Below are positions 5,430 to 64,000 of a DNA stretch of 64,000 nucleotides, in pieces. Made by a program: the position numbers and the translations under genes. Position 1 is the stretch's first letter. Each line of letters starts with the position of its first letter. This DNA comes from Methanobacteriota archaeon (lineage in GTDB: Archaea > Thermoplasmatota > Poseidoniia > Poseidoniales > Thalassarchaeaceae), in contig JAAZXI010000002.1 of assembly GCA_014240285.1 (NCBI GenBank), forward strand, positions 3,184 to 67,183, written 5' to 3'. The notes below the pieces were generated by a model, which did no database searches, was not told the origin of the DNA, and worked only from the letters and a program-made list of their open reading frames with translations.

Positions 5430-8400
5430 TTGAGTCCTACATGGGTGATATTGATGCGTTCCTCGCCGTCCCGGCGAGGCATGCGCTCATACGCGAGGCT
5501 GTCTGTCGGGCTCGCTCTACTGATGATGATGTCAGCTCAGTCCGGCATTTTCATGGACATGAAAGGCCCTTCTGAGGAGCTTTCGGACTTTCGGATAATG
5601 GAATCTTCTGTGAGAACGTCGAATCTGGTAGACGTTCCGGCATGGAGGGTCAACGACGTTTGGTATTACGACGGATACCTAGACGTCGGCGAGTTCGTGG
5701 CTAGCTCGGGAGTCAGTACGAATGTCCAATATCTCGACGGGACTCTTACCGAGAGGGTCACGGACATCTACACGATGGTGGTCGATGGTGATGCCACCTT
5801 AGTCTACAAAGTAGAATCGGACGGTTACTACGAGGCCAATAACATAAATCTCGACGGAAACAGTGGCGACCTAATAGTCGAGATGGATAATGAAGAAATC
5901 TTTCGTGCTTCCGATCTAGCATCTATTCAATACACTGCTACTTTTGACATCGACTTTGTCGTCCAGATACTGTGGTGGACTCAAACTGTCGATATTGCCG
6001 ACATGGTCGTTGATACCAGTTACTCGCCCCCTCTAGAGGGGTATGACTTCCCAATCAGCGTCGGAGAAGAGTGGGAAACCGACTACACTCAAGTTAACGA
6101 CTTCAGTGGCTCAAGCGACTACGTAACCATCCCCTCGGATAGCACTAGCAGCAACACCACGAGTTGGGAGGTCGTCAGTCAGGGATATCCTGGGATATCC
6201 TACAGCGGTTGCTCGCAGTCATACAATATCACGAATTACGACGACTCCGGAGAAGAGACGGGTTACAAATGGTTCTGCCCCGCCATCCGAGGCGAAATTC
6301 GCTCCTCTACGGCCATCGCGGGAGTTGGGATTTACGCTGACCACGAACTCACATCGTATCAGGCCGCTGGGAGGTCCAAACAGGTCTCAGTAGAGGTAAA
6401 ACACCCACTCAGCCCATTGGACTTTGAGTTGTCGGTATGGGTAAATGTCACCGAAAACTGGGGTCAGCCCGTTCAAAACCAGGCACTAGAGGTGAGATAT
6501 GAGATTCAAGGTGATATCCAGAGCGTGACGACGTCTGCTAATGGCTCTGCATACTTCACGATAGACACGGGGCACTCCGCTGATGATACGCTCGGCGACA
6601 ACGAGTTAGGTAGTCACGGGATCGTCGCTTGGATTCCCAGCCAGAAACTGCTTGGTGCCGCAACAGTGACCATCGACCCCGATGTTCACGAGGTCGACCT
6701 CATCTCACGCTCCGAAGGCGTTACTGTAGAGCGGACCAGAGGCACTAGGACAGTGACACTTGACAACAGTATAGGCTTCAATGCGGTTCCTGGGGATCAG
6801 TTGATTTTCAGTGTGCCTGTCCTCAATAGGGGAATCTCGAACTCCCCTGCTACTACCCTGATGGTTGAGACCCCAGACGGCTCGGCATCATCGACGCCCG
6901 TCCCTAGCCTCTCAAGCCTTGAGGAAATGCGAGTTGATGTCAGTTGGACCGTTCCGGAGAATCATGCATTCGGAGATATCAGCCTGACTTTCACTGCCGA
7001 TCCTGACGAGGAAATTATTGCTGATGGTAATCGCTCCAATAACCAGGGCTCATTCACCCTCTTCATCGGCAGACTGCCAACAGCATACCTGTCAATCGCA
7101 CCTGAGTCTCTAACGCTGACTGAAGTCAGCTTCAACGGATTGTCATCTTATGATCCAGACGGCGGGGCGATGACTTGCGAGTTCGTTGTCGAGAAGTTGA
7201 ATGGCGACAACTGGTCCTCGACCCAAGAAGACTGTGTGCACGAGTACACTTGGGACGATGATGGTACGTTCCTTGTATCCATGACTATCACGGATGACGA
7301 GAATGATAGGGACTACGCCGAGGCGGTCATAACAATCCTGAACAGACCGCCCGAGGTCGAGATCGGTGTAGATCAGGAGTCAGTCCCAGTGCTTTCACCT
7401 GTGACCTTTGATGTTCAGGAAAGCGGGGACCTCGACACACAGAACCCCGACGCGCCTATCGACATACAGTGGCATACTCCCTGCGACCAAGGACAAGTGG
7501 GAGTGCGGTGTACGGTCACCCCTGAGGTCGAAGGTCCGTACACAATAGAAGTCACTGTGATGGACGATGACGGAGCTACCACCGAAGACACGTTAACAAT
7601 CGATGTCACTAACATCGCCCCAACTAATCCGCAGGCCGAAGTGTGGTTCGGACCTAACAGGCTCGTTCCACAGATGCTTGGAGATAACGCTAGGTACACT
7701 GTCAATGAAGGCGATTCTCTGATTATCAAAGGATGGGCTGATGACTCTACGAATGACTTGGGCGGTCTCCAGCACCACTGGTCCCCAGATGCTGAACTGC
7801 AGCCGGAACTAATTATCAGCAGCACCGGATACCAGAGTCAATTCGAACATATCTATGACATCTCTGGACAGCATCTCGCTACTCTGCAGATAGTTGATGA
7901 CGACGGGGCCAGCACCGAAACGCTGATTCTACAGTTCATCGTAAGCAACGTAGCGCCGTCGATCTCTCCGGTGACGCCGCTGCTACCGGTGGCCGAGGAT
8001 GAATTAGTACAACTATCGGTCGAGGTGAGCGATACCTTTGGCGATCTGCCCAACCTAGTAACCTGCTACGATCTCGACCCGTATGCCAACTCCGATTCCG
8101 AGGGCAACTCCAGTGACGACTGTGACGTGGAGTCACTGCATCTCGCTCACGCCTGGTCCGACGCTACCACCGCTCCAGATCACATCATCTTCCATGTCAC
8201 AGACGATGATGGTGAGGGTGCGAGCATCACCATCTCAATAGATGTCAACAATGTCGACCCTGATGCTAGGGCCTCAACCAGCAATTACAACCCCATGGAG
8301 GGTGAAGTCATCGTACTGTCGGCGAATGGCACCACAGATTCGCAGTTCGACATGGAGAACATGGTCTACATCTGGGATTTGGACATTGACAAGGACAGTG

Positions 8401-9023
8401 ACGGCGACGGAGATCCCTCCAACGATGTTGATGAGGAAGGGAGATGGATTGAGGTGGCCTTCTCTAGCGAAGGCACTCGGACCATCCAGATGACAGCCTT
8501 TGACGAGGGCCATGGTTCTTCCATCACACTGGTCATCCAAGTCAAGAAGGAGCCTTTCAGCTTCGGTGTAATAATGGCTGACTATGGCATATACATAGGT
8601 CTGCTCGGACTGATTGTCATTCTAGTCGCGGTGCTGATTCAGAGGATGCGTTCGCCCGAAGTTGTCATCGAGGCCACGGTGACAGAAAACGTCCGTCGAC
8701 GCAGGGGCAGACGAGTCTCAATGGACGATGCCTTCGATGACCCTGACTACGATCCCTTCGATTCCGAAAAGAGGAAGCGGGGGCCTAGGAAGGGCAAAGG
8801 CGAGTCAGCGGTAGAGAAGGCACCCGGGGCACCTAGAGTACCAGAGCCACTGCCACCAGAGGAGCCTGAAATGGTGGATGGTGAACTCACGGATGCATTC
8901 AAGGAACTGGCTGGAGAGTCGTTGGAGAAAGAAGATGTCGAAGAGGCGCCTCCGGAGGCCGTCGCGGCGTCCGTAGATGAGGCTCTGGACAACGAGGACA
9001 TCGAAGCCCTCTTTGATGATTAG
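5430..9023 (+). CDS. large type-I surface protein with PKD-like and CARDB-like repeats, a C-terminal TM and an acidic cytoplasmic tail
   Basis: 1197 aa. The N-terminal signal-like segment is RLSVGLALLMMMSAQSG, so the true start is probably ATG 5454 or 5481 rather than TTG 5430. PKD-like units include FNGLSSYDPDGG...YTWDDDGTF...ITDDEND. A CARDB-like segment reads FSVPVLNRGISNSPATTLMV. The TM is IYIGLLGLIVILVAVLI, followed by a ~125-aa charged tail. Confidence 0.75.
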   Translation: MSPTWVILMRSSPSRRGMRSYARLSVGLALLMMMSAQSGIFMDMKGPSEELSDFRIMESSVRTSNLVDVPAWRVNDVWYYDGYLDVGEFVASSGVSTNVQYLDGTLTERVTDIYTMVVDGDATLVYKVESDGYYEANNINLDGNSGDLIVEMDNEEIFRASDLASIQYTATFDIDFVVQILWWTQTVDIADMVVDTSYSPPLEGYDFPISVGEEWETDYTQVNDFSGSSDYVTIPSDSTSSNTTSWEVVSQGYPGISYSGCSQSYNITNYDDSGEETGYKWFCPAIRGEIRSSTAIAGVGIYADHELTSYQAAGRSKQVSVEVKHPLSPLDFELSVWVNVTENWGQPVQNQALEVRYEIQGDIQSVTTSANGSAYFTIDTGHSADDTLGDNELGSHGIVAWIPSQKLLGAATVTIDPDVHEVDLISRSEGVTVERTRGTRTVTLDNSIGFNAVPGDQLIFSVPVLNRGISNSPATTLMVETPDGSASSTPVPSLSSLEEMRVDVSWTVPENHAFGDISLTFTADPDEEIIADGNRSNNQGSFTLFIGRLPTAYLSIAPESLTLTEVSFNGLSSYDPDGGAMTCEFVVEKLNGDNWSSTQEDCVHEYTWDDDGTFLVSMTITDDENDRDYAEAVITILNRPPEVEIGVDQESVPVLSPVTFDVQESGDLDTQNPDAPIDIQWHTPCDQGQVGVRCTVTPEVEGPYTIEVTVMDDDGATTEDTLTIDVTNIAPTNPQAEVWFGPNRLVPQMLGDNARYTVNEGDSLIIKGWADDSTNDLGGLQHHWSPDAELQPELIISSTGYQSQFEHIYDISGQHLATLQIVDDDGASTETLILQFIVSNVAPSISPVTPLLPVAEDELVQLSVEVSDTFGDLPNLVTCYDLDPYANSDSEGNSSDDCDVESLHLAHAWSDATTAPDHIIFHVTDDDGEGASITISIDVNNVDPDARASTSNYNPMEGEVIVLSANGTTDSQFDMENMVYIWDLDIDKDSDGDGDPSNDVDEEGRWIEVAFSSEGTRTIQMTAFDEGHGSSITLVIQVKKEPFSFGVIMADYGIYIGLLGLIVILVAVLIQRMRSPEVVIEATVTENVRRRRGRRVSMDDAFDDPDYDPFDSEKRKRGPRKGKGESAVEKAPGAPRVPEPLPPEEPEMVDGELTDAFKELAGESLEKEDVEEAPPEAVAASVDEALDNEDIEALFDD

Positions 9024-17893: not shown

Positions 17894-18174
17894 AGGTACT
17901 CAAGAAGGTGGTCCGAGCCGCCGACGAACACAGGCTCATCACCCCTCAAATCAAAAACGACCGGTACGGTCCTGTGCCTTGTCTCGGCCACAACATCCTC
18001 CCTCAGTCCCTCGTGGTGGTCGAGGTTGACCTCGGTGTAGGTGAATCCGTGCGCATCCAGAGTTCTCTCGGCACGTGTGCAGTAGGGGCAGATGGTCTGA
18101 CTGAACAACAGGAAGTCCGTCTCCGCGGACTCTAGTTGCTCCCTAACTTGTGACAACGGCCTCATCCTCCTCAT
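17890..18174 (-). CDS. glutaredoxin-like protein (CPYC)
   Basis: It has FLLFSQTICPYCTRAERTL...HRTVPVVF...FVGGSDHLLEYL. The track ORF extends to 18261 but overlaps the upstream gene. Likely starts are Met at 18174 or 18165. Confidence 0.75.
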   Translation of the reverse strand: MRRMRPLSQVREQLESAETDFLLFSQTICPYCTRAERTLDAHGFTYTEVNLDHHEGLREDVVAETRHRTVPVVFDLRGDEPVFVGGSDHLLEYL

Positions 18175-21100
18175 ACCACGCCTCTGGCCTCTCTCCGAGA
18201 TCCCCGTCGAACTCATCTTCACCATCACCAAAGCGTCCCTCGAGAGTCCTATCGACCTCATCGGGGTCGATGAACCATAGTAGTACTACAGTGAACAGTG
18301 TTAGCGCGCCCCCGATATAGAGGCAAGTGACGTAGTCGAATCTCTGAGTCATATTGCCTGTGAATAGATACGCCATCACTGCTGAGAGGTTGAACATCGA
18401 CATGTAGGCGGTGAACTGCGAGCCACCTGCCTTACTGAAGGTCAGCCTCATTGCCACGGCGATGACGCAAATCCACGCTACCCCGTTGATTACCGCCCTC
18501 ACGCACAGGTAGCCGACCATCAGATTCGTGTTGGTCCAGTAGTCGCTCATCAGAGCAAGAGATGCGTTTGATAGGGCAAGCAACGAGAAACCAATCATTG
18601 AGACTTCTCTGACTCCGAACCTGTCTCCGAGCATTCCTCCGACGATCTGCCCGAACATCATGAAGGCGATGACGACGCCACCGACGATTGCGTTGTACTT
18701 GGTCTGGGACCAACCTGCCTCGTTGATGAATATGTCAACAACGATTGGGTCTGTGAACAGATACAACTCGGAAAGCAGGCACAGGAATATCAGAATGAAG
18801 GAAGAGCGAGTGGAGAATCCCTTCACAATGTTGTAAGCAGTCTCTGAAGCAAGGGCGGAAGCCGGCATAGGATTCCGAATATCCGGGATGGATGCTCCAA
18901 GCCATCCAGCCAGCATTAGCAAGACTGAGGTCAGCAGACCCCACTTACCAATCGACTTCATCGGTGCGGCGATGTCTCCGAATGTCAACGCCCAATCTCC
19001 AGTATATGTGCTGGTAAGCTGGTGCAGGATGGCGAACAGCCCCCATATCAGAAGTGAGCCAATGCTGAGCCAGAGGATTAGTGCGGCTGGAGACATTCGG
19101 CTCTCGTAGAGATTAGTAGCTACCCAGCGGGCTTGCGTGAACTCCTCCGGGTGATCTGCCTCCCAGGGTAGTGCTTCTTCCGCCTCAATCGCCTCTTCAG
19201 CCTCAGCATACCAGACTTCTTCCTGCTCTTCCTTCTTGCTCCATGGGAACAGGCTGTTACTTGGCCTCTCACGCAAGAAGAGAGGTACCATCATAATCAG
19301 CACCAATAGTGGCAGTTGAACCATGATTGCTGATTTGATTCCGTAGGGAACAACTAGCATTCCAAGGACGGCTCCGCCGAAGATGATTCCACCTCTCTTA
19401 GAGGCGAACATCAGTCCGTTTACAGTGGCGACTTCATCCGGCTCGAGGATATCAACAGCCAGAGCATCGACGCTGACATCTTGCAGAGAGGAGAATAGAT
19501 TGTGGATGAATAGCAGTATAGTCACCAGTTCGATTGAAGCGACAAGGTCTGGGACCATCAGCAAGGTAGCAAGGGAGATAATCATGCCCGTCTCTGCGAA
19601 CAGGACCCAAGGTCGTCTAATTCCGTATTGAGGGAAAGTCACCATGTCGATGACTGGGCCCCAGATGAACTTGAATGTCCAAGGCAGATAGACGGTAGCG
19701 AATAGCAAGGCAATCTGCTCTACTGCGATTCCATTGGTTACCAGGAAAGCGACGAAGGCGACGTTGGCGAAGCCGGAGGGCAGGCCCTGGGCGACATAGA
19801 GGATGCACAGGGAGATGGTTCGAGACGCCTTGTTCTCGGTCAATGCCTCGCCATTTCTGAGGCCTCTGTAGAATTCACGGAATGAGAGAATAAACGCTAG
19901 GATAGCCCTTCTGAATCTTCTTCGTCTCTCTCGTTCTGCGGGGGTGCCGGGATTGTCAAAGTCGGCTATTGACCCAGCGGCATCGACAAAACGTTCAGCA
20001 TCGGACGATATCTTGGGCTTCAGCTTGGGCTTCAGCGCCGACAAGAACTTCCTGTCCCATCGCTCGGTGGTCATGATGAAACCCAGTAGGGCCATCACCA
20101 ATGCGAAGGGGACGAAGAACACGTACGAGCCAATAGAGATCAAGTCCTCTGCCGCTCCTGAGGCCAACTCACCATCAATGAGTATAACTCGGCGGGCATC
20201 GATTGGAGAGATACTGTCTTCGGAAACTTTCAGTCTCGCGTAGATCGTCGAGTTGCCTGATTCAAGGTGGGGGTCGAGTTTGACTCTCCAAGTAGCCCAG
20301 TCACCATTCTTCGACAGATCGGCCGCACCCTTCCACTCTCCGCCACCGACCTTTACTTCGACCAGCCCCAATCCCGGAGCGCCACCTGATGAGGTTCCGG
20401 CGATGTAGCTCTCATTGCCAATTTCCTGCAGGGTCAAGACATCCATTGAGACGTTCAGAGAGCGGTCGATGCTGCCTGCAGCCTCGACAAAGGCAACTGG
20501 GTCTGCCTGCCCATAGCCAAACTCGTTGTCAGGGCGGGTCTCCAGCAGACTACAGTCGTTGAACCCTGGATCATCGAGAATTGCAATTTCCCGCTCTATC
20601 GAGTAGGCCCCTATGATGTCCTTGAACTCGGTAGGGGTGATATCTGGATTGGCTTGTACCATTAACGCGGCTATCCCTGCCATCAGCGGTGTGGCCATGC
20701 TGGTGCCGGACTTGCTGGTGTAACCATCCTTGGTTAGAGCATCTGGTGCCATTATGCTAGATCCAATTGCGGCAACATCGGGCTTGATTCTCAAATCTGA
20801 GGTGTAGCCACGACTACTGTAGATAGCCAGACCCAAGTCCTTGTCGAGGGACGCAACAGTGACGGGGAGTCTCGCATCTCCTGGGCTGTCTATTGTATTA
20901 CAGCCGGCGAATGTAGCGCCGCCGAACTCGTTACCTGCAGATAGAGTGGTGATGATACCGGCCTCTACGACCATGTCCATCTGGCGGCTCCAAGCCGAGT
21001 TGCCATCATTGTCGACGTGAATCTCAAACTGTTGCTCCCCCAACGATGAGGTCACGATATCAATCCCGTGCTTGTCCTTGTTGTCAATCGCCCACTGAGC

Positions 21101-22075
21101 CCCTTGCATTACATCCTCAATGTCGCCGTCGCAGCAGGCTAGGATGGTAACTAGGTAGGCGCCGGGGGCTGCACCGACGTAACGCAGGCCGGTGCTTGGG
21201 TCTGACTGCCCTCCGCCGCTACCAGCTGCGATACCAGCTACGTGACTGCCATGTGTCCCAGAGTCATAGGATTCGGACGGATCATGTTCCTCGTCTGTGA
21301 ACACAGCGTCGAAGAATGCGATTATCTTCGGATCGCAATCGGCGGGAATGGGTTCCGGATTGGGATCGAGTGGATCGGGCGGGTCGTCAATGCAAGTGAA
21401 AGGGTCATCGTCCATGTCGTTGAGGCCCTCGTGGTCCCCCCGAACCCCAGTGTCGAGTATTGCAATAACAGATCCAGTTCCGTCTAGACCGAGGTCGTTC
21501 CAGACATCATCCACGCCCATGTTCGGGACAGCCTCATGCATGTTTGGCTCAGCGAGGCCGAGGTCCTCGACCATGACCACGCCAGGCAGTGAACGTATTC
21601 CCTCTGAATCTAGAATTGCTTCAAACGGAGCGGTGGCAGAGACTGTGTCTAGGTAGGTGAAACGGAAAGTCACCTCAACTCCGAGGCCCTCTAGAGCAGA
21701 AACATCGGCGTCGGTCGGATGATGATTGTAGTCTACGAACACCCTAGCGCTTCCCGGAGGAGCTCTTCTCCACCAGTCCTGCTGTAATTCGGCGGGCTGT
21801 TCGAGCAGCCACTCAAGCCTGTCATCCAGTTCGTTCGCATCCTTGTCGCGACTCCAGTGCAGCCACCAGTAGGGGTGGACATCGTGCTCGACCGAGGCAC
21901 TCCAGTTGCCCTCAGCGTCGAATCCTCCTGCCTCCTGAGTCGCCACGATGGTCGATGAGGCTAGAGGAAGGAGGAAGAGCAGAACTATTGCCGCGGCCAG
22001 CGCTCCAGAGCGTCCTACCATTGGTAGGACGAAAGTGAGGTGGTGTTTGAGACTTAGGTAGTCGGCAGTCGTCAA
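18143..22075 (-). CDS. fusion protein: secreted S8 subtilisin-like protease plus TM linker plus AmpG/PAT-family MFS permease
   Basis: 1310 aa. The signal-like segment is MVGRSGALAAAIVLLFLLPLASS, so the probable true start is 22021. The S8 triad contexts are AILDTGV (D208), GTHGSHVAG (H275) and SGTSMATPLMAG (S458). A TM spans 646-669 and a basic linker follows. The C-terminal ~550 aa is polytopic, with YVAQGLPSGF and FKFIWGPVIDM...GIRRPWVL, which matches the AmpG family signature as I recall it. Confidence 0.8.
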   Translation of the reverse strand: MTTADYLSLKHHLTFVLPMVGRSGALAAAIVLLFLLPLASSTIVATQEAGGFDAEGNWSASVEHDVHPYWWLHWSRDKDANELDDRLEWLLEQPAELQQDWWRRAPPGSARVFVDYNHHPTDADVSALEGLGVEVTFRFTYLDTVSATAPFEAILDSEGIRSLPGVVMVEDLGLAEPNMHEAVPNMGVDDVWNDLGLDGTGSVIAILDTGVRGDHEGLNDMDDDPFTCIDDPPDPLDPNPEPIPADCDPKIIAFFDAVFTDEEHDPSESYDSGTHGSHVAGIAAGSGGGQSDPSTGLRYVGAAPGAYLVTILACCDGDIEDVMQGAQWAIDNKDKHGIDIVTSSLGEQQFEIHVDNDGNSAWSRQMDMVVEAGIITTLSAGNEFGGATFAGCNTIDSPGDARLPVTVASLDKDLGLAIYSSRGYTSDLRIKPDVAAIGSSIMAPDALTKDGYTSKSGTSMATPLMAGIAALMVQANPDITPTEFKDIIGAYSIEREIAILDDPGFNDCSLLETRPDNEFGYGQADPVAFVEAAGSIDRSLNVSMDVLTLQEIGNESYIAGTSSGGAPGLGLVEVKVGGGEWKGAADLSKNGDWATWRVKLDPHLESGNSTIYARLKVSEDSISPIDARRVILIDGELASGAAEDLISIGSYVFFVPFALVMALLGFIMTTERWDRKFLSALKPKLKPKISSDAERFVDAAGSIADFDNPGTPAERERRRRFRRAILAFILSFREFYRGLRNGEALTENKASRTISLCILYVAQGLPSGFANVAFVAFLVTNGIAVEQIALLFATVYLPWTFKFIWGPVIDMVTFPQYGIRRPWVLFAETGMIISLATLLMVPDLVASIELVTILLFIHNLFSSLQDVSVDALAVDILEPDEVATVNGLMFASKRGGIIFGGAVLGMLVVPYGIKSAIMVQLPLLVLIMMVPLFLRERPSNSLFPWSKKEEQEEVWYAEAEEAIEAEEALPWEADHPEEFTQARWVATNLYESRMSPAALILWLSIGSLLIWGLFAILHQLTSTYTGDWALTFGDIAAPMKSIGKWGLLTSVLLMLAGWLGASIPDIRNPMPASALASETAYNIVKGFSTRSSFILIFLCLLSELYLFTDPIVVDIFINEAGWSQTKYNAIVGGVVIAFMMFGQIVGGMLGDRFGVREVSMIGFSLLALSNASLALMSDYWTNTNLMVGYLCVRAVINGVAWICVIAVAMRLTFSKAGGSQFTAYMSMFNLSAVMAYLFTGNMTQRFDYVTCLYIGGALTLFTVVLLWFIDPDEVDRTLEGRFGDGEDEFDGDLGERPEAWYEEDEAVVTS

Positions 22076-22965
22076 TTGACCTGCATACCCTGATTGTCAT
22101 AGTCCCATTCGATGACTTCCCAACCAGCCTGTTCTATTGCAGAAACCGCTGCACTGACGCCCATTGGTGAGCAGAGCACCCCGACTGAACCACCGCCGCC
22201 TGCGCCTAGGGCCTTCCAAGCGACGACTGAACCAGCCTCCTGAAGCGGCGAGATTACGGTCCTGAACGGGTCGTGAATGGCAGGATCGAGCATATCTACG
22301 CCCTCGCAGACGTCCTTCAGGGCCTTCACAACGAGTTCTCGGCGGTCCCTCTGTAGTCCGTCTGCCATCGTCCTCGCGGCTCCTCTGATTAAATGCAGCC
22401 CAGAGAGCACAGACTGGTCGCCCTGATCATAGCGCTCCCAGACTCCTGAATGGATGTCACCGGACTTGTGCTCTATCCCGGTGTAGGCGATAACGAAGTG
22501 CTTGCGCAACCAGTTCCTAGCTGACTTCATCGGCTCGAACGGCATTTCCTCGACCTCGTCGCCGAGGAACAGGAGATGATTGAATCCGCCGCGCGCTGCA
22601 GCCCACTGGTCCTGCCTACCACCTCGATTCTCAAGCAGTGCCTCGAATTGAAAGGCCATCTCCGCTATGTCCTCCGGACTCTTACCCCCTCCTGCTATAG
22701 TGGCAATTAATCCGACATTCATCGCACCGCTGGTGCCGAGACCTGAGCCAGTCGGAATGTCGCTGCTGTACTCAACCCTGATGCGGCCATCGGAGTCCTT
22801 CTCCATCACACTGCGGATGTACTGATTGATGGCGAAATTTACGACCTCGCCGCCGAAATCTCCTGTGTAGGGTTGCACATCGGTCCAGCCCCCTGCGAGG
22901 TCGACTCTTACGGGTACTGACACTTCGATTCGCTCCGCCATGGTCGAGGCAGATATCCGGCCCAT
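22072..22965 (-). CDS. GHMP-family sugar kinase (HddA/fucokinase-like)
   Basis: 297 aa. It has VRVDLAGGWTDVQPY, the GHMP motif PTGSGLGTSGAMNVGLIA, GGRQDQWAAARGGFN, and the C-terminal KALGAGGGGSVGVL. Its stop overlaps the 5' end of the next ORF. Confidence 0.75.
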   Translation of the reverse strand: MGRISASTMAERIEVSVPVRVDLAGGWTDVQPYTGDFGGEVVNFAINQYIRSVMEKDSDGRIRVEYSSDIPTGSGLGTSGAMNVGLIATIAGGGKSPEDIAEMAFQFEALLENRGGRQDQWAAARGGFNHLLFLGDEVEEMPFEPMKSARNWLRKHFVIAYTGIEHKSGDIHSGVWERYDQGDQSVLSGLHLIRGAARTMADGLQRDRRELVVKALKDVCEGVDMLDPAIHDPFRTVISPLQEAGSVVAWKALGAGGGGSVGVLCSPMGVSAAVSAIEQAGWEVIEWDYDNQGMQVN

Positions 22966-61856: not shown

Positions 61857-64000
61857 TCAGTCGCGTCGGGTTGAGATAGCGGCTCCCAGAAGCACGACCA
61901 CTGCCATCAGCGCGCCGAAGCCCGGTAGCACCTCAGCAGTTGCGAACGATTCGGAAGTGTACTGGTCGGCCCAAGTGTCGTACAGCTCAACCTGGACGTC
62001 TGGCATGAGATTGTCAATGACCAAAGTGTCCATGTCTGAAATCAGGCCATCACCGTCGTAGTCTAGATACTCGTAGGTGAATTCGTACTCGGCGAGCGCG
62101 GGATCGACTGTAGCTGAGCCCTCGGTAAGTCCGTTCGAGGCGGCAAGCGTGCAATCCGAGATAGGGGGCTCGTTGCCCTCCTCGTCAGGCTCACCGCAAT
62201 CGACAAGGAACCTGACCTCGAAGTCCGAGATAGGAGCGTTCAGAGTCTGGTCCATGACCCACATGGTGACTTGGAAGGGCTCGTCGTCGCCATCGTCACC
62301 ATCGTCCTCATCGTCCTCATCGGACATGATTTCATCCCACATTTCAGCGAACTCGTAGATGTCGAGGCCGTTGCTGTCATCGTGGTCGTACATGTCCATC
62401 ATGTAAATGAGATTGTTGAAGTCATCTCCTTCGATAATGTCACCAGTAGAGTTGGCAAAGTCGGCCCACTCAGAGGGAGTGATCTGCCCGTCACCGTCAG
62501 TGTTCATCCATTCGAAGACTTCGTCGGCAGACGGATCTTCACCGTCATCGTCTGACCCTGACCACTCATCTCCTCCAGAGGTCCACTCGTAGTCCTCGCT
62601 CTGTCCGAAGTCGTCAGTGCAGTGCCAGCCGTCATCCTCGTGGTCCTCGCAGTAATACCACCAAGTCTCCCAGTCTTCATCATCTTCAGAATACTTGCAA
62701 TACCAAGCGTTCTCTTCTCCATCTGCGTCTCCTTCCCACTCGCAGTGGCCGCCCTCGTAAGATTGCCAGTAGACGTCGTTTCCATCGTCGCCACCATCGT
62801 CATCGCCGGTGGATTCCAACAATTGCGTTAATTCGTCGAGGCTGAGCAGATCGTCCCCATCGGTATCGCCGTAGTTGAACCAGTTAGCCGTTCCCTCCTC
62901 GTCCTCGCTGGACATAGGTTCACCCCCGTCCTGCTCCGCTTCGTTGTTGAGGTAATCGATGAGTTCCTGCAGGCTCAGATAGCCGTCGTCGTCCGTGTCC
63001 ATGGAGTCCATCATCTGCTCTGGATCCTCATCAGAGCCGCCCAACATGGATACGATGCCATCGATGAAGCACTGCATCTCGTCGATGTCGATCAGGTCGT
63101 TGTCGTCATAGTCGCAATCATCGAACAGAGCTGCGACCTCTTCCGAATCGAGTTCGGGGTTTTCTGGATCGGATTCCCAGGCGTCCTGGAACTCTTGGTA
63201 GCCCATGTAGCCGTCACCATCGGTGTCTACGTCCTCCATGGCCTCTTCGGGAGTCGGGGGGCCATCGTCGCCATCATCGCCGCCATCGTCTTGGTAGTAC
63301 CAATGCTCATCAGAGCCGTCTGGGCAGTCGTCTTCCCAGTTATTGACCCATGAGAACGGGATTACAGTCCCATCCATGCATTCGAACTCTGAGGTCTCTT
63401 CTCCTGGCTCATCTGAGCCATCCTCGCAATCCTCCCAGCCGTCATCGTATGCTTCTTCTTCAACAGATTCTCCGTCGTCGCAAATAAATGAGGGTATGGT
63501 TTCGATGAGGATGCCACTTCCGGTAGTAGAGTCGTACTGATAGAACCCAAGGTCATCTTCATCAGACCAAGCTATAGCAACGCCGTCGGCTGCGTCGTAC
63601 TCCCTTCCCATCCAGCAAATGTCTTCATCAGCATCATAGGAGCCACCATACATATCGCAGTACTGCCCAGATTCATCTCCTGAATTCTCTGCCCAATTGT
63701 TCTGGGCGAAGAGAACGTGGGTGTCGTTGATTATGAGATTATTCGTAAACGAACAAACATCGTTATCGGAATCATATGTCCCTCCATCGTCTTCACAGTA
63801 TTCCCCAGACGAGTCACCAGTCTCAATTGACCAGTCCTCCTCAGTGTCCCAAATTGTGAATGTAGAAGGCATTGTGAACGGAGAGTCATCGATTTCGTAG
63901 TTGGTGTAGTACTCATTTGGTTCAGCATCACATATTGGTGCGCCTGTAACCATACTACTCATATTGAGATTGGTTTCATCCCACAATTCAGAAGGATGTT
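61857..64000 (-). CDS. hyperacidic Ca-binding-type surface protein with PGF-CTERM (5' end beyond the window)
   Basis: The frame stays open upstream of the TTG at 63986, and there is no signal peptide, so the gene is N-terminally truncated by the window edge. It has six EF-hand-like loops, two LDLa-like DCxDGSDE modules, and a poly-D/E tract. The C-terminus is LPGFGALMAVVVLLGAAISTRRD. Confidence 0.75.
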   Translation of the reverse strand, partial: HPSELWDETNLNMSSMVTGAPICDAEPNEYYTNYEIDDSPFTMPSTFTIWDTEEDWSIETGDSSGEYCEDDGGTYDSDNDVCSFTNNLIINDTHVLFAQNNWAENSGDESGQYCDMYGGSYDADEDICWMGREYDAADGVAIAWSDEDDLGFYQYDSTTGSGILIETIPSFICDDGESVEEEAYDDGWEDCEDGSDEPGEETSEFECMDGTVIPFSWVNNWEDDCPDGSDEHWYYQDDGGDDGDDGPPTPEEAMEDVDTDGDGYMGYQEFQDAWESDPENPELDSEEVAALFDDCDYDDNDLIDIDEMQCFIDGIVSMLGGSDEDPEQMMDSMDTDDDGYLSLQELIDYLNNEAEQDGGEPMSSEDEEGTANWFNYGDTDGDDLLSLDELTQLLESTGDDDGGDDGNDVYWQSYEGGHCEWEGDADGEENAWYCKYSEDDEDWETWWYYCEDHEDDGWHCTDDFGQSEDYEWTSGGDEWSGSDDDGEDPSADEVFEWMNTDGDGQITPSEWADFANSTGDIIEGDDFNNLIYMMDMYDHDDSNGLDIYEFAEMWDEIMSDEDDEDDGDDGDDEPFQVTMWVMDQTLNAPISDFEVRFLVDCGEPDEEGNEPPISDCTLAASNGLTEGSATVDPALAEYEFTYEYLDYDGDGLISDMDTLVIDNLMPDVQVELYDTWADQYTSESFATAEVLPGFGALMAVVVLLGAAISTRRD

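What the first reader, a model, noticed from the sequence alone, without database searches (positions are those of the whole stretch)
18143..22075. Single ORF fusing a secreted S8 subtilase to an AmpG/PAT-type MFS permease
One uninterrupted 1310-codon frame has these parts:
- a signal-like N-terminus
- a complete S8 catalytic domain (D208 in AILDTGV, H275 in GTHGSHVAG, S458 in SGTSMATP)
- a beta-rich domain
- one TM (residues 646-669)
- a basic cytoplasmic linker
- a ~550-aa polytopic domain with YVAQGLPSGF and FKFIWGPVIDM...GIRRPWVL, which matches the AmpG / acetyl-CoA-transporter (PAT) branch of the MFS as I remember it (E. coli AmpG FKFLWSPLMDRY...GRRRGWLL)

The topology is self-consistent: protease outside, one TM, MFS N-terminus inside. 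I know of no characterised protein that covalently couples an extracellular protease to a secondary transporter. It would physically link substrate cleavage to uptake of the product.
Basis: partly seen in the sequence, partly recalled or inferred. Interest (0 to 1): 0.7.

Follow-up and report, generated by a model that had tools for sequence, protein, structure and literature searches.

The report
Surface protease fused to membrane transporter
An abundant group of ocean archaea makes one protein that joins a cell-surface protein-cutting enzyme to a membrane importer, which may let the cell take up what it cuts before the pieces drift away; nobody has tested this.

Summary

It encodes, in order:
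- a signal peptide
- an I9-like propeptide
- an S8 subtilase with an invariant D/H/N/S set
- a beta domain
- one TM helix
- a variable basic linker
- a 14-TM MFS permease whose nearest solved relative, by sequence and by fold, is AmpG

It is not a frameshift artefact. All 37 complete loci from species-representative genomes carry one uninterrupted ORF (57-91% identity, Thalassarchaeaceae/Marine Group II b). A 46%-identical version occurs in Marine Group III.

New context:
- An unfused S8-TM relative exists.
- At the same chromosomal position, other Poseidoniales lineages carry an M28 peptidase or an unknown ectodomain on the same MFS scaffold.
- More distant homologues, most with no source name, carry glycoside-hydrolase-like or other domains instead.

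Most likely function is tethered proteolysis coupled to proton-driven import of the products. The cargo is unproven. AmpG-type coupling residues are kept, two sugar-binding positions differ, and bacterial relatives sit beside sulfatase genes.

I found no paper describing the fusion. Databases call it hypothetical or "MFS transporter". I rate it a new variant of a known kind, interest about 0.65.

The parts
21953..22021 (-). Signal peptide (residues 1-23, MVGRSGALAAAIVLLFLLPLASS). An alternative TTG start at 22075 overlaps the stop codon of the upstream GHMP-kinase gene.
   Evidence: Hydropathy peak at residues 8-26. A 99%-identical database protein is called at 1292 aa and others at 1307 aa.
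21512..21952 (-). N-terminal pro-region (residues 24-170) containing an I9-like beta-alpha-beta-beta propeptide fold.
   Evidence: AF2 strands and helix at model positions 32-94, blocks of pLDDT about 62-95. Foldseek aligns 444-613 columns to ProN-Tk-SP (3afg) and to unautoprocessed pro-subtilisin E (3whi). No Pfam Inhibitor_I9 hit. Mean identity 0.70 across 38 sequences.
20507..21511 (-). S8 subtilase catalytic domain (residues 171-505). Catalytic residues are D190, H257, N364 (oxyanion) and S441.
   Evidence: PF00082 E 1e-43. Best solved relative is Tk-SP 3afg, E 1.6e-35. D/H/N/S are invariant in all 38 sequences compared, and this is the best conserved region (mean identity 0.85).
20138..20506 (-). 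Beta-rich domain (residues 506-628), placed like the C-terminal beta-jelly-roll of Tk-SP.
   Evidence: AF2 beta strands at model 464-552. The Foldseek alignment to 3afg spans pro-region, catalytic domain and C-terminal domain. Weak CBM_6 hit, E 0.018, below threshold.
20057..20137 (-). Single membrane-anchor helix TM0 (residues about 629-655, hydrophobic core 634-652).
   Evidence: Hydropathy 2.3. AF2 helix at model 574-593. Stand-alone relatives end in just such a C-terminal TM anchor.
19832..20056 (-). Basic, length-variable cytoplasmic linker (residues 656-730) containing an amphipathic helix.
   Evidence: The loop from the anchor to the first MFS helix (residues 653-738) holds 20 K/R in 86 residues. 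Over residues 656-730 the mean identity is only 0.26, with 40% gaps across orthologues. AF2 helices at model 596-664.
19262..19831 (-). MFS N-terminal six-helix bundle (residues 731-920) with an AmpG-type motif A (FKFIWGPVID...GIRRPW) and SLQDVSVDALAVD in TM4.
   Evidence: PF07690 and PF13000. Matches AmpG chains 9j9z, 8zbb, 8zgz and 9c3f at E 5e-11 to 8e-10. K784, W781, P789, D792, R802, R803, W805, D848 and D852 are invariant; D857 is D in 36 of 38 and W787 is W in 37 of 38.
18878..19261 (-). Central loop (residues 921-1048): an acidic stretch followed by an inserted pair of TM helices (about 978-1003 and 1014-1040). This makes the permease 14-TM.
   Evidence: Hydropathy peaks at 981-999 and 1027-1045. 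AF2 helices at model 919-944 and 955-981. The same internal placement is reported for P. aeruginosa and A. baumannii AmpG (PMC11568325). The pair is absent from the L051 and M28 variants.
18260..18877 (-). MFS C-terminal six-helix bundle (residues 1049-1254).
   Evidence: TIGR00901 match runs through residue 1249. AF2 pLDDT is about 84-97 per ten-residue block. Mean identity 0.71.
18143..18259 (-). Acidic cytoplasmic tail (residues 1255-1292) and stop codon (18143-18145).
   Evidence: Translation. The segment after the last hydrophobic peak (residues 1252-1292) holds 17 D/E in 41 residues.
22072..22965 (-). Upstream GHMP-kinase-family gene, on the same strand. It lies 50 nt from the ATG start, or overlaps by 4 nt if the TTG start is used. 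It is context only and is not claimed to be functionally linked.
   Evidence: PF00288 and PF08544. The same neighbour is found in L051 (50% identity).

Best explanation
What it is: a genuine, conserved bifunctional membrane protein of Poseidoniia archaea. The window is a Candidatus Thalassarchaeum-like Marine Group II b genome.

Anatomy (shown):
- A Sec-type signal peptide exports a pro-subtilase that resembles Thermococcus Tk-SP: an I9-like propeptide, an S8 catalytic domain with a complete and invariant D/H/N/S set, and a beta domain.
- One TM helix and a variable basic linker tie this ectodomain to the cytoplasmic N-terminus of a 14-TM MFS permease of the AmpG/acetyl-CoA-transporter (PAT) branch.

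Origin (inferred): a surface subtilase with a C-terminal TM anchor, a kind that still exists unfused, was joined to a downstream permease gene. The old anchor became the connecting helix.

Mechanism (inferred, not shown):
- After the propeptide is removed, the protease stays tethered next to the permease's outward-facing cavity and cuts dissolved or particulate protein.
- The permease keeps the AmpG motif-A latch and the TM2/TM4 Lys/Asp/Asp residues. It would import the peptide or glycopeptide products using the proton gradient.
- This would limit diffusive loss of products in a plankton cell, which (from general knowledge of archaeal envelopes, not tested here) has no outer membrane or periplasm.
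For: Domains and structure:
- AmpG is the nearest solved MFS by sequence and by fold (9j9z, E 4e-13).
- Tk-SP is the nearest protease.
- The AF2 model has mean pLDDT 81 and shows one anchor helix plus 14 MFS helices.
- Charge distribution fits the positive-inside rule.

The fusion is real:
- All 37 complete loci, one per species-representative genome, carry a single ORF at 57-91% identity. One is a 1.6-Mb long-read contig.
- All 120 listed database clusters are full-length or near-full-length fusions.
- A 46%-identical fusion occurs in Marine Group III.

Both halves are under constraint:
- The catalytic tetrad is invariant. Mean identity is 0.85 for S8 and 0.71-0.74 for the MFS bundles, against 0.26 for the linker.
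- The AmpG K62, D70, D125 and D129 equivalents are invariant; the D134 equivalent is D in 36 of 38 (residue roles from PMC11568325).

Support for coupling (Rosetta-stone logic):
- The same MFS scaffold at the same locus (317-aa gene, H+-PPase, GATase block) carries an M28 peptidase in other Poseidoniales. I count about 57 clusters of that family.
- More distant homologues of the MFS carry a glycoside hydrolase, a 3-keto-disaccharide-hydrolase domain or FG-GAP repeats. Their source organisms are not named.

Support for the proposed origin: unfused relatives end in a C-terminal TM anchor. One close relative, P0122, is a complete stand-alone gene.

Precedent: A. baumannii AmpG1 recruits the cleaving enzyme Slt to couple cleavage with import (PMC13507758).
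Against: - No transport or protease assay exists, so the cargo is unknown.
- As far as I know, no characterised member of the AmpG/PAT branch carries plain peptides. AmpG recognises a disaccharide.
- Two of the five AmpG sugar-binding positions differ here (Y152 to K; Y59 to W), and K132 is replaced by A.
- The closest stand-alone bacterial relatives sit next to sulfatase, beta-lactamase-family or FG-GAP genes, not peptidases. That points towards glycan or amino-sugar cargo for the clade.
- Some lineages carry the MFS with a non-protease ectodomain (L051), and the S8 module also exists unfused. The pairing is therefore not obligatory.
- A Thalassarchaeaceae M28 paralogue has a degenerate MFS that has lost the K/D/D residues. 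An MFS can therefore decay into a mere anchor.
- I had no PAE or coordinates, so I could not assess whether the protease docks over the permease mouth.
Confidence: 0.55

Rival explanations
1. Anchor or co-expression only. The two halves work independently. The MFS imports or exports something unrelated to proteolysis, such as amino sugars, sulfated glycan fragments or a cofactor. The fusion merely keeps the protease on the cell surface and sets a 1:1 stoichiometry.
For: - Bacterial relatives of the MFS sit next to sulfatase, beta-lactamase-family and FG-GAP genes.
- The ectodomain is interchangeable. Variants include an unknown beta domain and a plastocyanin-like domain.
- The S8 module works as a stand-alone TM-anchored protein elsewhere.
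- An M28 paralogue carries a degenerate MFS that looks like a pure anchor.
Against: - A single TM already suffices as an anchor, yet the 14-TM permease keeps its motif-A and Lys/Asp/Asp residues invariant across MGIIb and MGIII.
- Two unrelated peptidase clans (S8 and M28) were each joined to this same scaffold at the same locus. That is hard to explain if the partners were functionally unrelated.
Confidence: 0.3
2. Delivery vehicle. The protein is translated as one chain, but the ectodomain is cut from the permease after export, by itself or by another protease, at the short stalk before TM0. The mature products are then a free secreted subtilase and a separate permease.
For: - From general knowledge, subtilases commonly undergo N- and C-terminal autoprocessing.
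- The stalk just before TM0 (residues about 615-625) has low AF2 confidence, so it could be an accessible cleavage site.
Against: - The beta domain and TM0 are conserved as a unit and the stalk is short.
- Related unfused proteins keep a membrane anchor, which suggests surface retention is the selected state.
- I have no direct evidence either way.
Confidence: 0.12
3. Assembly or annotation artefact. A frameshift or chimeric contig merged two adjacent genes.
For: None found. The only weak point is that the source is metagenome-derived.
Against: - All 37 complete loci, from independent assemblies, carry the single ORF. They include a 1.6-Mb long-read contig and range from 57 to 91% identity.
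- All 120 listed database clusters are full-length or near-full-length fusions.
- A divergent fused version occurs in Marine Group III.
- The topology is only consistent if the halves are fused through one TM.
Confidence: 0.01

Closest known systems
AmpG anhydromuropeptide permease (E. coli and others; PDB 9c3f, 8zgz, 9j9z, 8zbb), PAT branch of the MFS
   Same: - It is the nearest solved structure to the C-terminal half, both by sequence (E 5e-11) and by fold (E 4e-13).
- The AmpG family model aligns end to end.
- It shares the AmpG-style motif A (FKF.W.P..D....RR.W).
- It shares K62, D70, D125 and D129 (invariant) and D134 (36 of 38).
- It has 14 TMs. The extra helix pair is inserted between the two bundles, as reported for P. 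aeruginosa and A. baumannii AmpG.
   Different: - It scores 124 bits against the family cut-off of 350.
- Y59 to W, S123 to L, K132 to A and Y152 to K are fixed differences in and around the sugar-binding site.
- From general knowledge, the host is an archaeon with no murein to recycle.
- It carries a 730-residue N-terminal extension that AmpG lacks.
Tk-SP, subtilisin-like serine protease of Thermococcus kodakarensis (PDB 3afg, 9ues)
   Same: - It is the best sequence match (E 1.6e-35) and the best fold match (E 4.8e-19 over 613 columns) to the ectodomain.
- It has the same order of parts: propeptide, S8 domain, C-terminal beta domain.
   Different: - From general knowledge, Tk-SP is a soluble secreted enzyme.
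- The protein here continues into a TM helix and a permease.
- It has acidic insertions with low model confidence (residues about 205-228 and 478-502).
A. baumannii AmpG1 with the soluble lytic transglycosylase Slt (PMC13507758)
   Same: An AmpG-family permease carrying an extracytoplasmic domain, reported to couple cleavage of a polymer outside the membrane to import of the product.
   Different: - The coupling there is non-covalent: a periplasmic domain recruits a separate enzyme.
- The enzyme is a glycan lyase, not a protease.
- The substrate is the cell's own wall in a periplasm, not external food.
Bacteriocin-type ABC exporters with an N-terminal C39 peptidase domain (PCAT1 type); from general knowledge, not tested here
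   Same: A characterised case of a protease covalently fused to a transporter, so that cleavage and transport of one substrate are linked.
   Different: - It is a primary (ATP-driven) exporter.
- The peptidase is cytoplasmic and removes a leader peptide.
- The direction of transport and the logic are the reverse of what is proposed here.
M28-peptidase-MFS fusions of other Poseidoniales (P0128 family; uncharacterised)
   Same: - Same layout: signal peptide, peptidase ectodomain, one TM, linker, same MFS clade (45% identity by phmmer over the matched stretches).
- Same chromosomal neighbourhood.
   Different: - The ectodomain is a metallo-exopeptidase family rather than a serine endopeptidase.
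- The permease has 12 TMs, without the inserted helix pair.

Membership tests
Peptidase S8 (subtilases) | Match to the family profile above the curated threshold | tested here: met
   PF00082 at 150 bits against a 21.8 cut-off, covering model positions 1-288 of 288.
Peptidase S8 (subtilases) | Catalytic Asp-His-Ser in that order, plus the oxyanion-hole Asn | tested here: met
   D190 (AILDTGV), H257 (HGSHVAG), N364 (SAGNE) and S441 (GTSMA) are invariant in all 38 sequences compared.
Peptidase S8 (subtilases) | N-terminal I9-type propeptide (intramolecular chaperone and inhibitor) | tested here: inconclusive
   - AF2 gives a beta-alpha-beta-beta fold at model positions 32-94, blocks of pLDDT about 62-95.
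- Foldseek aligns the model to pro-forms 3afg and 3whi.
- No Pfam Inhibitor_I9 hit at E up to 0.1.
Peptidase S8 (subtilases) | Proteolytic activity | not testable with these tools
   Needs an enzyme assay.
Major facilitator superfamily | Profile match and two six-helix bundles | tested here: met
   - PF07690 at 100.5 bits against a 33.4 cut-off.
- The AF2 model shows 6 + 6 helices plus an inserted pair. Ten-residue blocks have pLDDT about 77-97 in the bundles and about 64-76 in the inserted pair.
AmpG / PAT family (TIGR00901; TCDB 2.A.1.25 from memory) | Score at or above the curated family cut-off | tested here: not met
   - TIGR00901 scores 123.8 bits against a 350 cut-off, although the alignment is end to end.
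- The AmpG equivalog models score far lower: NF008238 at 51 against 756, and NF008867 at 63 against 656.
AmpG / PAT family | AmpG-type motif A and the TM2/TM4 titratable residues (K62, D70, R80, W83, D125, D129, D134) | tested here: met
   K784, D792, R802, W805, D848 and D852 are invariant in 38 sequences and D857 is D in 36. The mapping comes from the HMMER alignment to 9j9z. Residue roles come from PMC11568325.
AmpG / PAT family | Disaccharide-binding set Y59, K62, D125, D129, Y152 | tested here: not met
   Three of five are identical. Y59 to W and Y152 to K are fixed in all 38 sequences, and K132 to A as well. Membership as an AmpG orthologue is therefore not claimed.
AmpG / PAT family | 14 TMs, with an extra helix pair forming a vestibule | tested here: met
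   An extra helix pair at about 978-1003 and 1014-1040 lies between the bundles. That placement is described for P. aeruginosa and A. baumannii AmpG. I could not check whether the pair forms a vestibule, because no coordinates were available.
AmpG / PAT family | Transports GlcNAc-anhydroMurNAc(-peptide) or acetyl-CoA | not testable with these tools
   Needs a transport assay. From general knowledge, the host lacks murein.
POT/PTR proton-dependent oligopeptide transporters (considered as the expected peptide-importing MFS) | Match to the PTR2 profile | tested here: not met
   No PTR2 hit among Pfam families at E up to 0.1.

The most novel reading that the evidence does not exclude
The S8-MFS protein is one face of a wider class that I found described nowhere: ectoenzyme-tethered MFS importers.
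- An AmpG-like permease scaffold would serve as a docking platform for interchangeable surface enzymes.
- In Poseidoniia archaea the partners are an S8 endopeptidase, an M28 exopeptidase and an unknown domain.
- In more distant homologues of unnamed origin they are glycoside-hydrolase-like and other domains.
- The permease would take up each enzyme's product at the point of release.
- This would be the single-membrane counterpart of the "selfish" uptake systems of Bacteroidota. It could explain how these abundant planktonic archaea live on dissolved protein.
Probability: 0.35. Interest if true: 0.8.

Novelty: new variant of a known kind. Interest (0 to 1): 0.65.

Why it matters
Marine Group II archaea are among the most abundant heterotrophs in surface oceans, are still uncultured, and are thought to live on protein and lipid.
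- A basic problem for any free-living cell that digests polymers outside itself is that the products diffuse away.
- A protease welded to an importer is a simple physical answer to that problem. It appears here as a conserved, syntenic gene across Thalassarchaeaceae and in Marine Group III.
- The parallel M28 fusion at the same locus suggests the design was selected repeatedly.

If the coupling is real, three things follow:
- It gives a testable mechanism for archaeal use of dissolved protein.
- It supplies a marker gene for that activity in metagenomes and metatranscriptomes.
- It extends the AmpG/PAT branch of the MFS to a new physiological role.

It is also a natural template for engineered enzyme-transporter fusions.

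Tried and rejected
- Translating the plus strand at the given coordinates gave stop-riddled sequence. The ORF is on the minus strand.
- Frameshift or chimera artefact: rejected.
- AmpG orthology: rejected on the score cut-off and on the binding residues.
- POT/PTR-type peptide transporter: no profile hit.
- Literature: eight full-text searches found no description of the fusion. Three Marine Group II genomics papers were searched for subtilisin, S08, MFS and AmpG (searches failed because a search term was too short). Only Orellana et al. 2019 mentions extracellular S8, and it does not mention a fusion.
- Identifying the unknown ectodomain of the L051/P0125 variant: no Pfam hit. AF2 gave pLDDT below 50 over much of it and at best about 70, so I ran no fold search.
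- Inferring cargo from bacterial gene neighbourhoods gave mixed, mostly glycan-leaning hints and no peptidases. The question is left unresolved.
- Paralogue in the window: none.
- Whether the stand-alone S8 (P0122, GC about 40%) comes from the same lineage as the L051 variant (GC about 37%) could not be settled.
- The NJ tree of MFS cores is crude and has no support values. I used it only as a hint that ectodomain swaps happened more than once.
- Model coordinates and PAE were not available. I could not measure the position of the protease relative to the permease mouth.

Full report

Yes. An uninterrupted ORF fills window 18143..22075, but it is on the minus strand.
- From the first in-frame TTG (22075) it has 1310 codons.
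- The likely start is the ATG at 22021. That gives 1292 aa beginning with a textbook signal peptide. A 99%-identical database protein is called at that length.
- I use 1292-aa numbering below.

- Pfam finds Peptidase_S8 at 181-504 (E 1e-43), MFS_1 at 738-1057 (E 1e-28) and the acetyl-CoA-transporter family PF13000 at 738-861, just above its threshold.
- NCBIfam's AmpG-family model TIGR00901 aligns end to end over residues 733-1249.
- All six quoted motifs are present.

Hydropathy supports the proposed topology.
- There is a signal peptide, then one strong TM at 634-652.
- The next 86 residues hold 20 Lys/Arg, against 5.6% Lys/Arg in the very acidic ectodomain.
- About 14 hydrophobic segments follow.

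**2. Is it one gene?**

Yes.
- All 120 listed relatives are full-length or near-full-length fusions at 75-99% identity, many on contigs longer than 100 kb. JGI labels them "subtilisin family serine protease/MFS family permease".
- A scan of one genome per GTDB species found the gene in about 45 Poseidoniales genomes. These include Candidatus Thalassarchaeum, Thalassarchaeaceae and MGIIb-O1/O3.
- In all 37 loci where the contig covers the whole gene, it is a single stop-free frame at 57-91% identity. One of these is a 1.6-Mb long-read contig.
- At 50% clustering, a further fused family at 46% identity belongs to Marine Group III (UniRef A0A7J4GW02, named "MFS transporter").

**3. Anatomy.**

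AlphaFold2 on residues 60-1254 with a 70-sequence alignment gave mean pLDDT 81 and pTM 0.60. In order, it shows:
- a beta-alpha-beta-beta propeptide-like unit
- the subtilase fold
- a beta domain
- a membrane helix (633-652)
- short helices and a long amphipathic helix in the linker
- six MFS helices
- an acidic loop
- an inserted pair of long helices (about 978-1003 and 1014-1040)
- six more MFS helices

Foldseek against the PDB ranks pro-Tk-SP of Thermococcus kodakarensis first (3afg, E 4.8e-19, 613 aligned columns covering the pro-region, catalytic domain and beta domain). AmpG is the best membrane match (9j9z, E 4e-13; 8zbb). Sequence searches of the PDB agree.

The 14-TM count with the extra pair placed between the two bundles matches what the E. 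coli AmpG cryo-EM paper reports for P. aeruginosa and A. baumannii AmpG (PMC11568325).

**4. Are both halves functional?**

I aligned 38 full-length sequences: the window protein, 34 orthologues from loci and three database proteins, two of them Marine Group III.
- D190, H257, N364 and S441 are invariant.
- The S8 domain is the best conserved region (mean identity 0.85).
- The two MFS bundles follow at 0.74 and 0.71.
- The linker is poorly conserved (0.26) and full of indels, as expected for a tether.

I mapped the residues the AmpG structure paper singles out through the HMMER alignment.
- Invariant here: K62, P67, D70, R80, R81, W83, D125 and D129. Nearly invariant: W65 (37 of 38) and D134 (36 of 38).
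- Fixed differences: Y59 to W, S123 to L, K132 to A and Y152 to K.
- The transport machinery therefore looks intact, but the substrate pocket is not AmpG's.
- TIGR00901 scores 124 bits against a cut-off of 350, and the AmpG equivalog models score far lower.
- I therefore file the domain as AmpG/PAT-like, not as an AmpG.

**5. Where did the fusion come from?**

- Stand-alone relatives of the protease half (31-72% identity) typically end in a single C-terminal TM helix with a short basic tail. Several carry PGF-CTERM-like motifs.
- One relative, P0122 (672 aa), is 64-70% identical to every MGIIb fused ectodomain.
- P0122 is a complete gene on at least nine contigs, with no permease gene next to it.
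- The simplest history is that such an anchored surface subtilase was joined to a downstream permease gene. Its anchor helix became the connector.
- That history automatically gives the correct topology: protease outside, MFS N-terminus inside.

**6.

Among the homologues of the MFS half ranked highest in the exhaustive search, several carry other extracytoplasmic domains:
- Peptidase_M28 + TM + MFS (P0128)
- an unidentified Cys-containing beta domain + TM + MFS (P0124, P0125, P0132, L051, L052)
- a plastocyanin-like domain + MFS (P0131)
- MFS followed by a 3-keto-disaccharide-hydrolase domain (P0147)
- MFS followed by FG-GAP repeats (P0229)
- MFS followed by an MGH1-like glycoside hydrolase with a discoidin domain (P0252)

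Further points on these variants:
- The source organisms of P0131, P0147, P0229 and P0252 are not named.
- By my count the M28 fusion is itself a family of about 57 clusters at 55-100% identity.
- The M28 fusion, the unknown-domain variant and the S8 fusion all sit beside the same block of homologous genes: a 317-320-aa protein, an H+-pyrophosphatase and a glutamine amidotransferase.
- Different Poseidoniales lineages therefore carry different ectodomains on one permease scaffold at one locus.
- A crude NJ tree of the MFS cores places the unknown-domain variants inside the MGIIb S8 clade. The M28 forms fall in a second clade (no support values).
- Thalassarchaeaceae also have an M28 protein fused to a degenerate 12-TM domain. 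It keeps the RRR-W motif but has lost the Lys/Asp/Asp residues.

**7. What does it do?**

Shown:
- a conserved, apparently active surface subtilase
- a covalent link, through one TM helix, to a conserved AmpG-like permease that appears competent for transport

Inferred:
- The protease cuts external protein, and the permease imports the products using the proton gradient.

The best arguments for coupling:
- Two unrelated peptidase families were independently attached to the same scaffold.
- Hydrolase-like domains occur on more distant homologues.
- A. baumannii AmpG1 uses a periplasmic domain to recruit the lytic transglycosylase Slt and couple cleavage to import (PMC13507758).

The main arguments against:
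- No characterised PAT-branch transporter that I know of carries plain peptides.
- The closest stand-alone bacterial relatives lie next to sulfatase (Verrucomicrobiales), beta-lactamase-family (Planctomycetia) or FG-GAP genes.
- The ectodomain can be a non-protease.

I put tethered cleavage with uptake at 0.55, independent functions with the MFS as anchor at 0.30, and post-translational shedding at 0.12. An artefact is about 0.01.

One speculative observation:
- Both S8 (endopeptidase) fusions have the inserted helix pair. In AmpG that pair forms a vestibule for bulky substrates.
- The M28 (exopeptidase) fusion has 12 TMs.
- P0124 breaks the pattern: it has an unknown ectodomain with 14 TMs.

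**8. Novelty.**

- The proteins are in public databases as "hypothetical protein", "MFS transporter", "Peptidase S8/S53 domain-containing protein" or the JGI double label.
- Searches of open-access full text found no description of the fusion.
- Marine Group II genomics papers mention extracellular S8 peptidases but not a permease fusion.
- Each part belongs to a known family, and the idea of enzyme-transporter coupling has precedents.
- The covalent ecto-protease-MFS architecture, its conservation in a globally abundant archaeal class, and the swap series at one locus appear undescribed.
- I rate it a new variant of a known kind, with interest 0.65.

Noticed in passing
L080 6001-8610 (also L081-L083); proteins P0128, P0355-P0410: Other Poseidoniales carry a Peptidase_M28 + one TM + 12-TM MFS fusion. 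I count about 57 clusters of it at 55-100% identity. It sits beside the same block of genes (317-aa protein, H+-PPase, GATase) as the S8 fusion in the window.
   Followed up: partly
L051 7308-9662 and L052 6466-8880; proteins P0124, P0125, P0132: Syntenic orthologues of the gene carry a roughly 220-300-aa Cys-containing, beta-rich ectodomain instead of S8. It has no Pfam match. AF2 could not model it (pLDDT below 50 over much of it, at best about 70).
   Followed up: partly
P0419, P0413, P0417 (859-908 aa; P0419 is named as Candidatus Thalassarchaeaceae): An M28 peptidase is fused to a degenerate 12-TM MFS-like domain. The domain keeps the GRRRSW motif but has lost the conserved Lys/Asp/Asp residues. 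It may be a permease that has decayed into a membrane anchor.
   Followed up: partly
L084-L087; protein P0122 (672 aa): A stand-alone S8 + beta domain + C-terminal TM protein is 64-70% identical to all fused MGIIb ectodomains. It lies in an unrelated neighbourhood with no permease gene. It is either a fission product or the unfused ancestral form.
   Followed up: partly
L054 9356-10810, L059 7338-8792 (L058 has an ORF of the same size): In marine Verrucomicrobiales, the closest stand-alone relative of the MFS domain (about 43% identity) is followed directly by a sulfatase gene with an SGSH_C domain. That hints at sulfated amino-sugar cargo for that branch.
   Followed up: partly
Proteins P0131, P0147, P0229, P0252: The same MFS clade is fused to a plastocyanin-like copper domain, a 3-keto-disaccharide-hydrolase domain, FG-GAP repeats, or an MGH1-like glycoside hydrolase with a discoidin domain. 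The three C-terminal fusions (P0147, P0229, P0252) have one extra hydrophobic segment after the permease, which would place their added domain outside the cell. The source organisms are not named.
   Followed up: partly
L014 (NZWI01000049.1): A contig deposited as a Candidatus Neomarinimicrobiota bacterium MAG carries the archaeal S8-MFS gene at 84% identity. This is most likely binning contamination.
   Followed up: no
window 61857-63986 (-): A 709-aa ORF has several EF-hand calcium-binding motifs and an LDL-receptor class A domain. That is an unusual combination for an archaeon.
   Followed up: no
window 5430-9023 (+): A 1197-aa ORF has PKD and CARDB domains and a weak macroglobulin MG4 match. 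It is probably a large surface protein.
   Followed up: no
window 22072-22075: The stop codon of the upstream GHMP-kinase gene overlaps the first in-frame TTG of the fusion ORF by 4 nt. The ATG at 22021 gives the better signal peptide, so the true start, and any translational coupling, remain unresolved.
   Followed up: no
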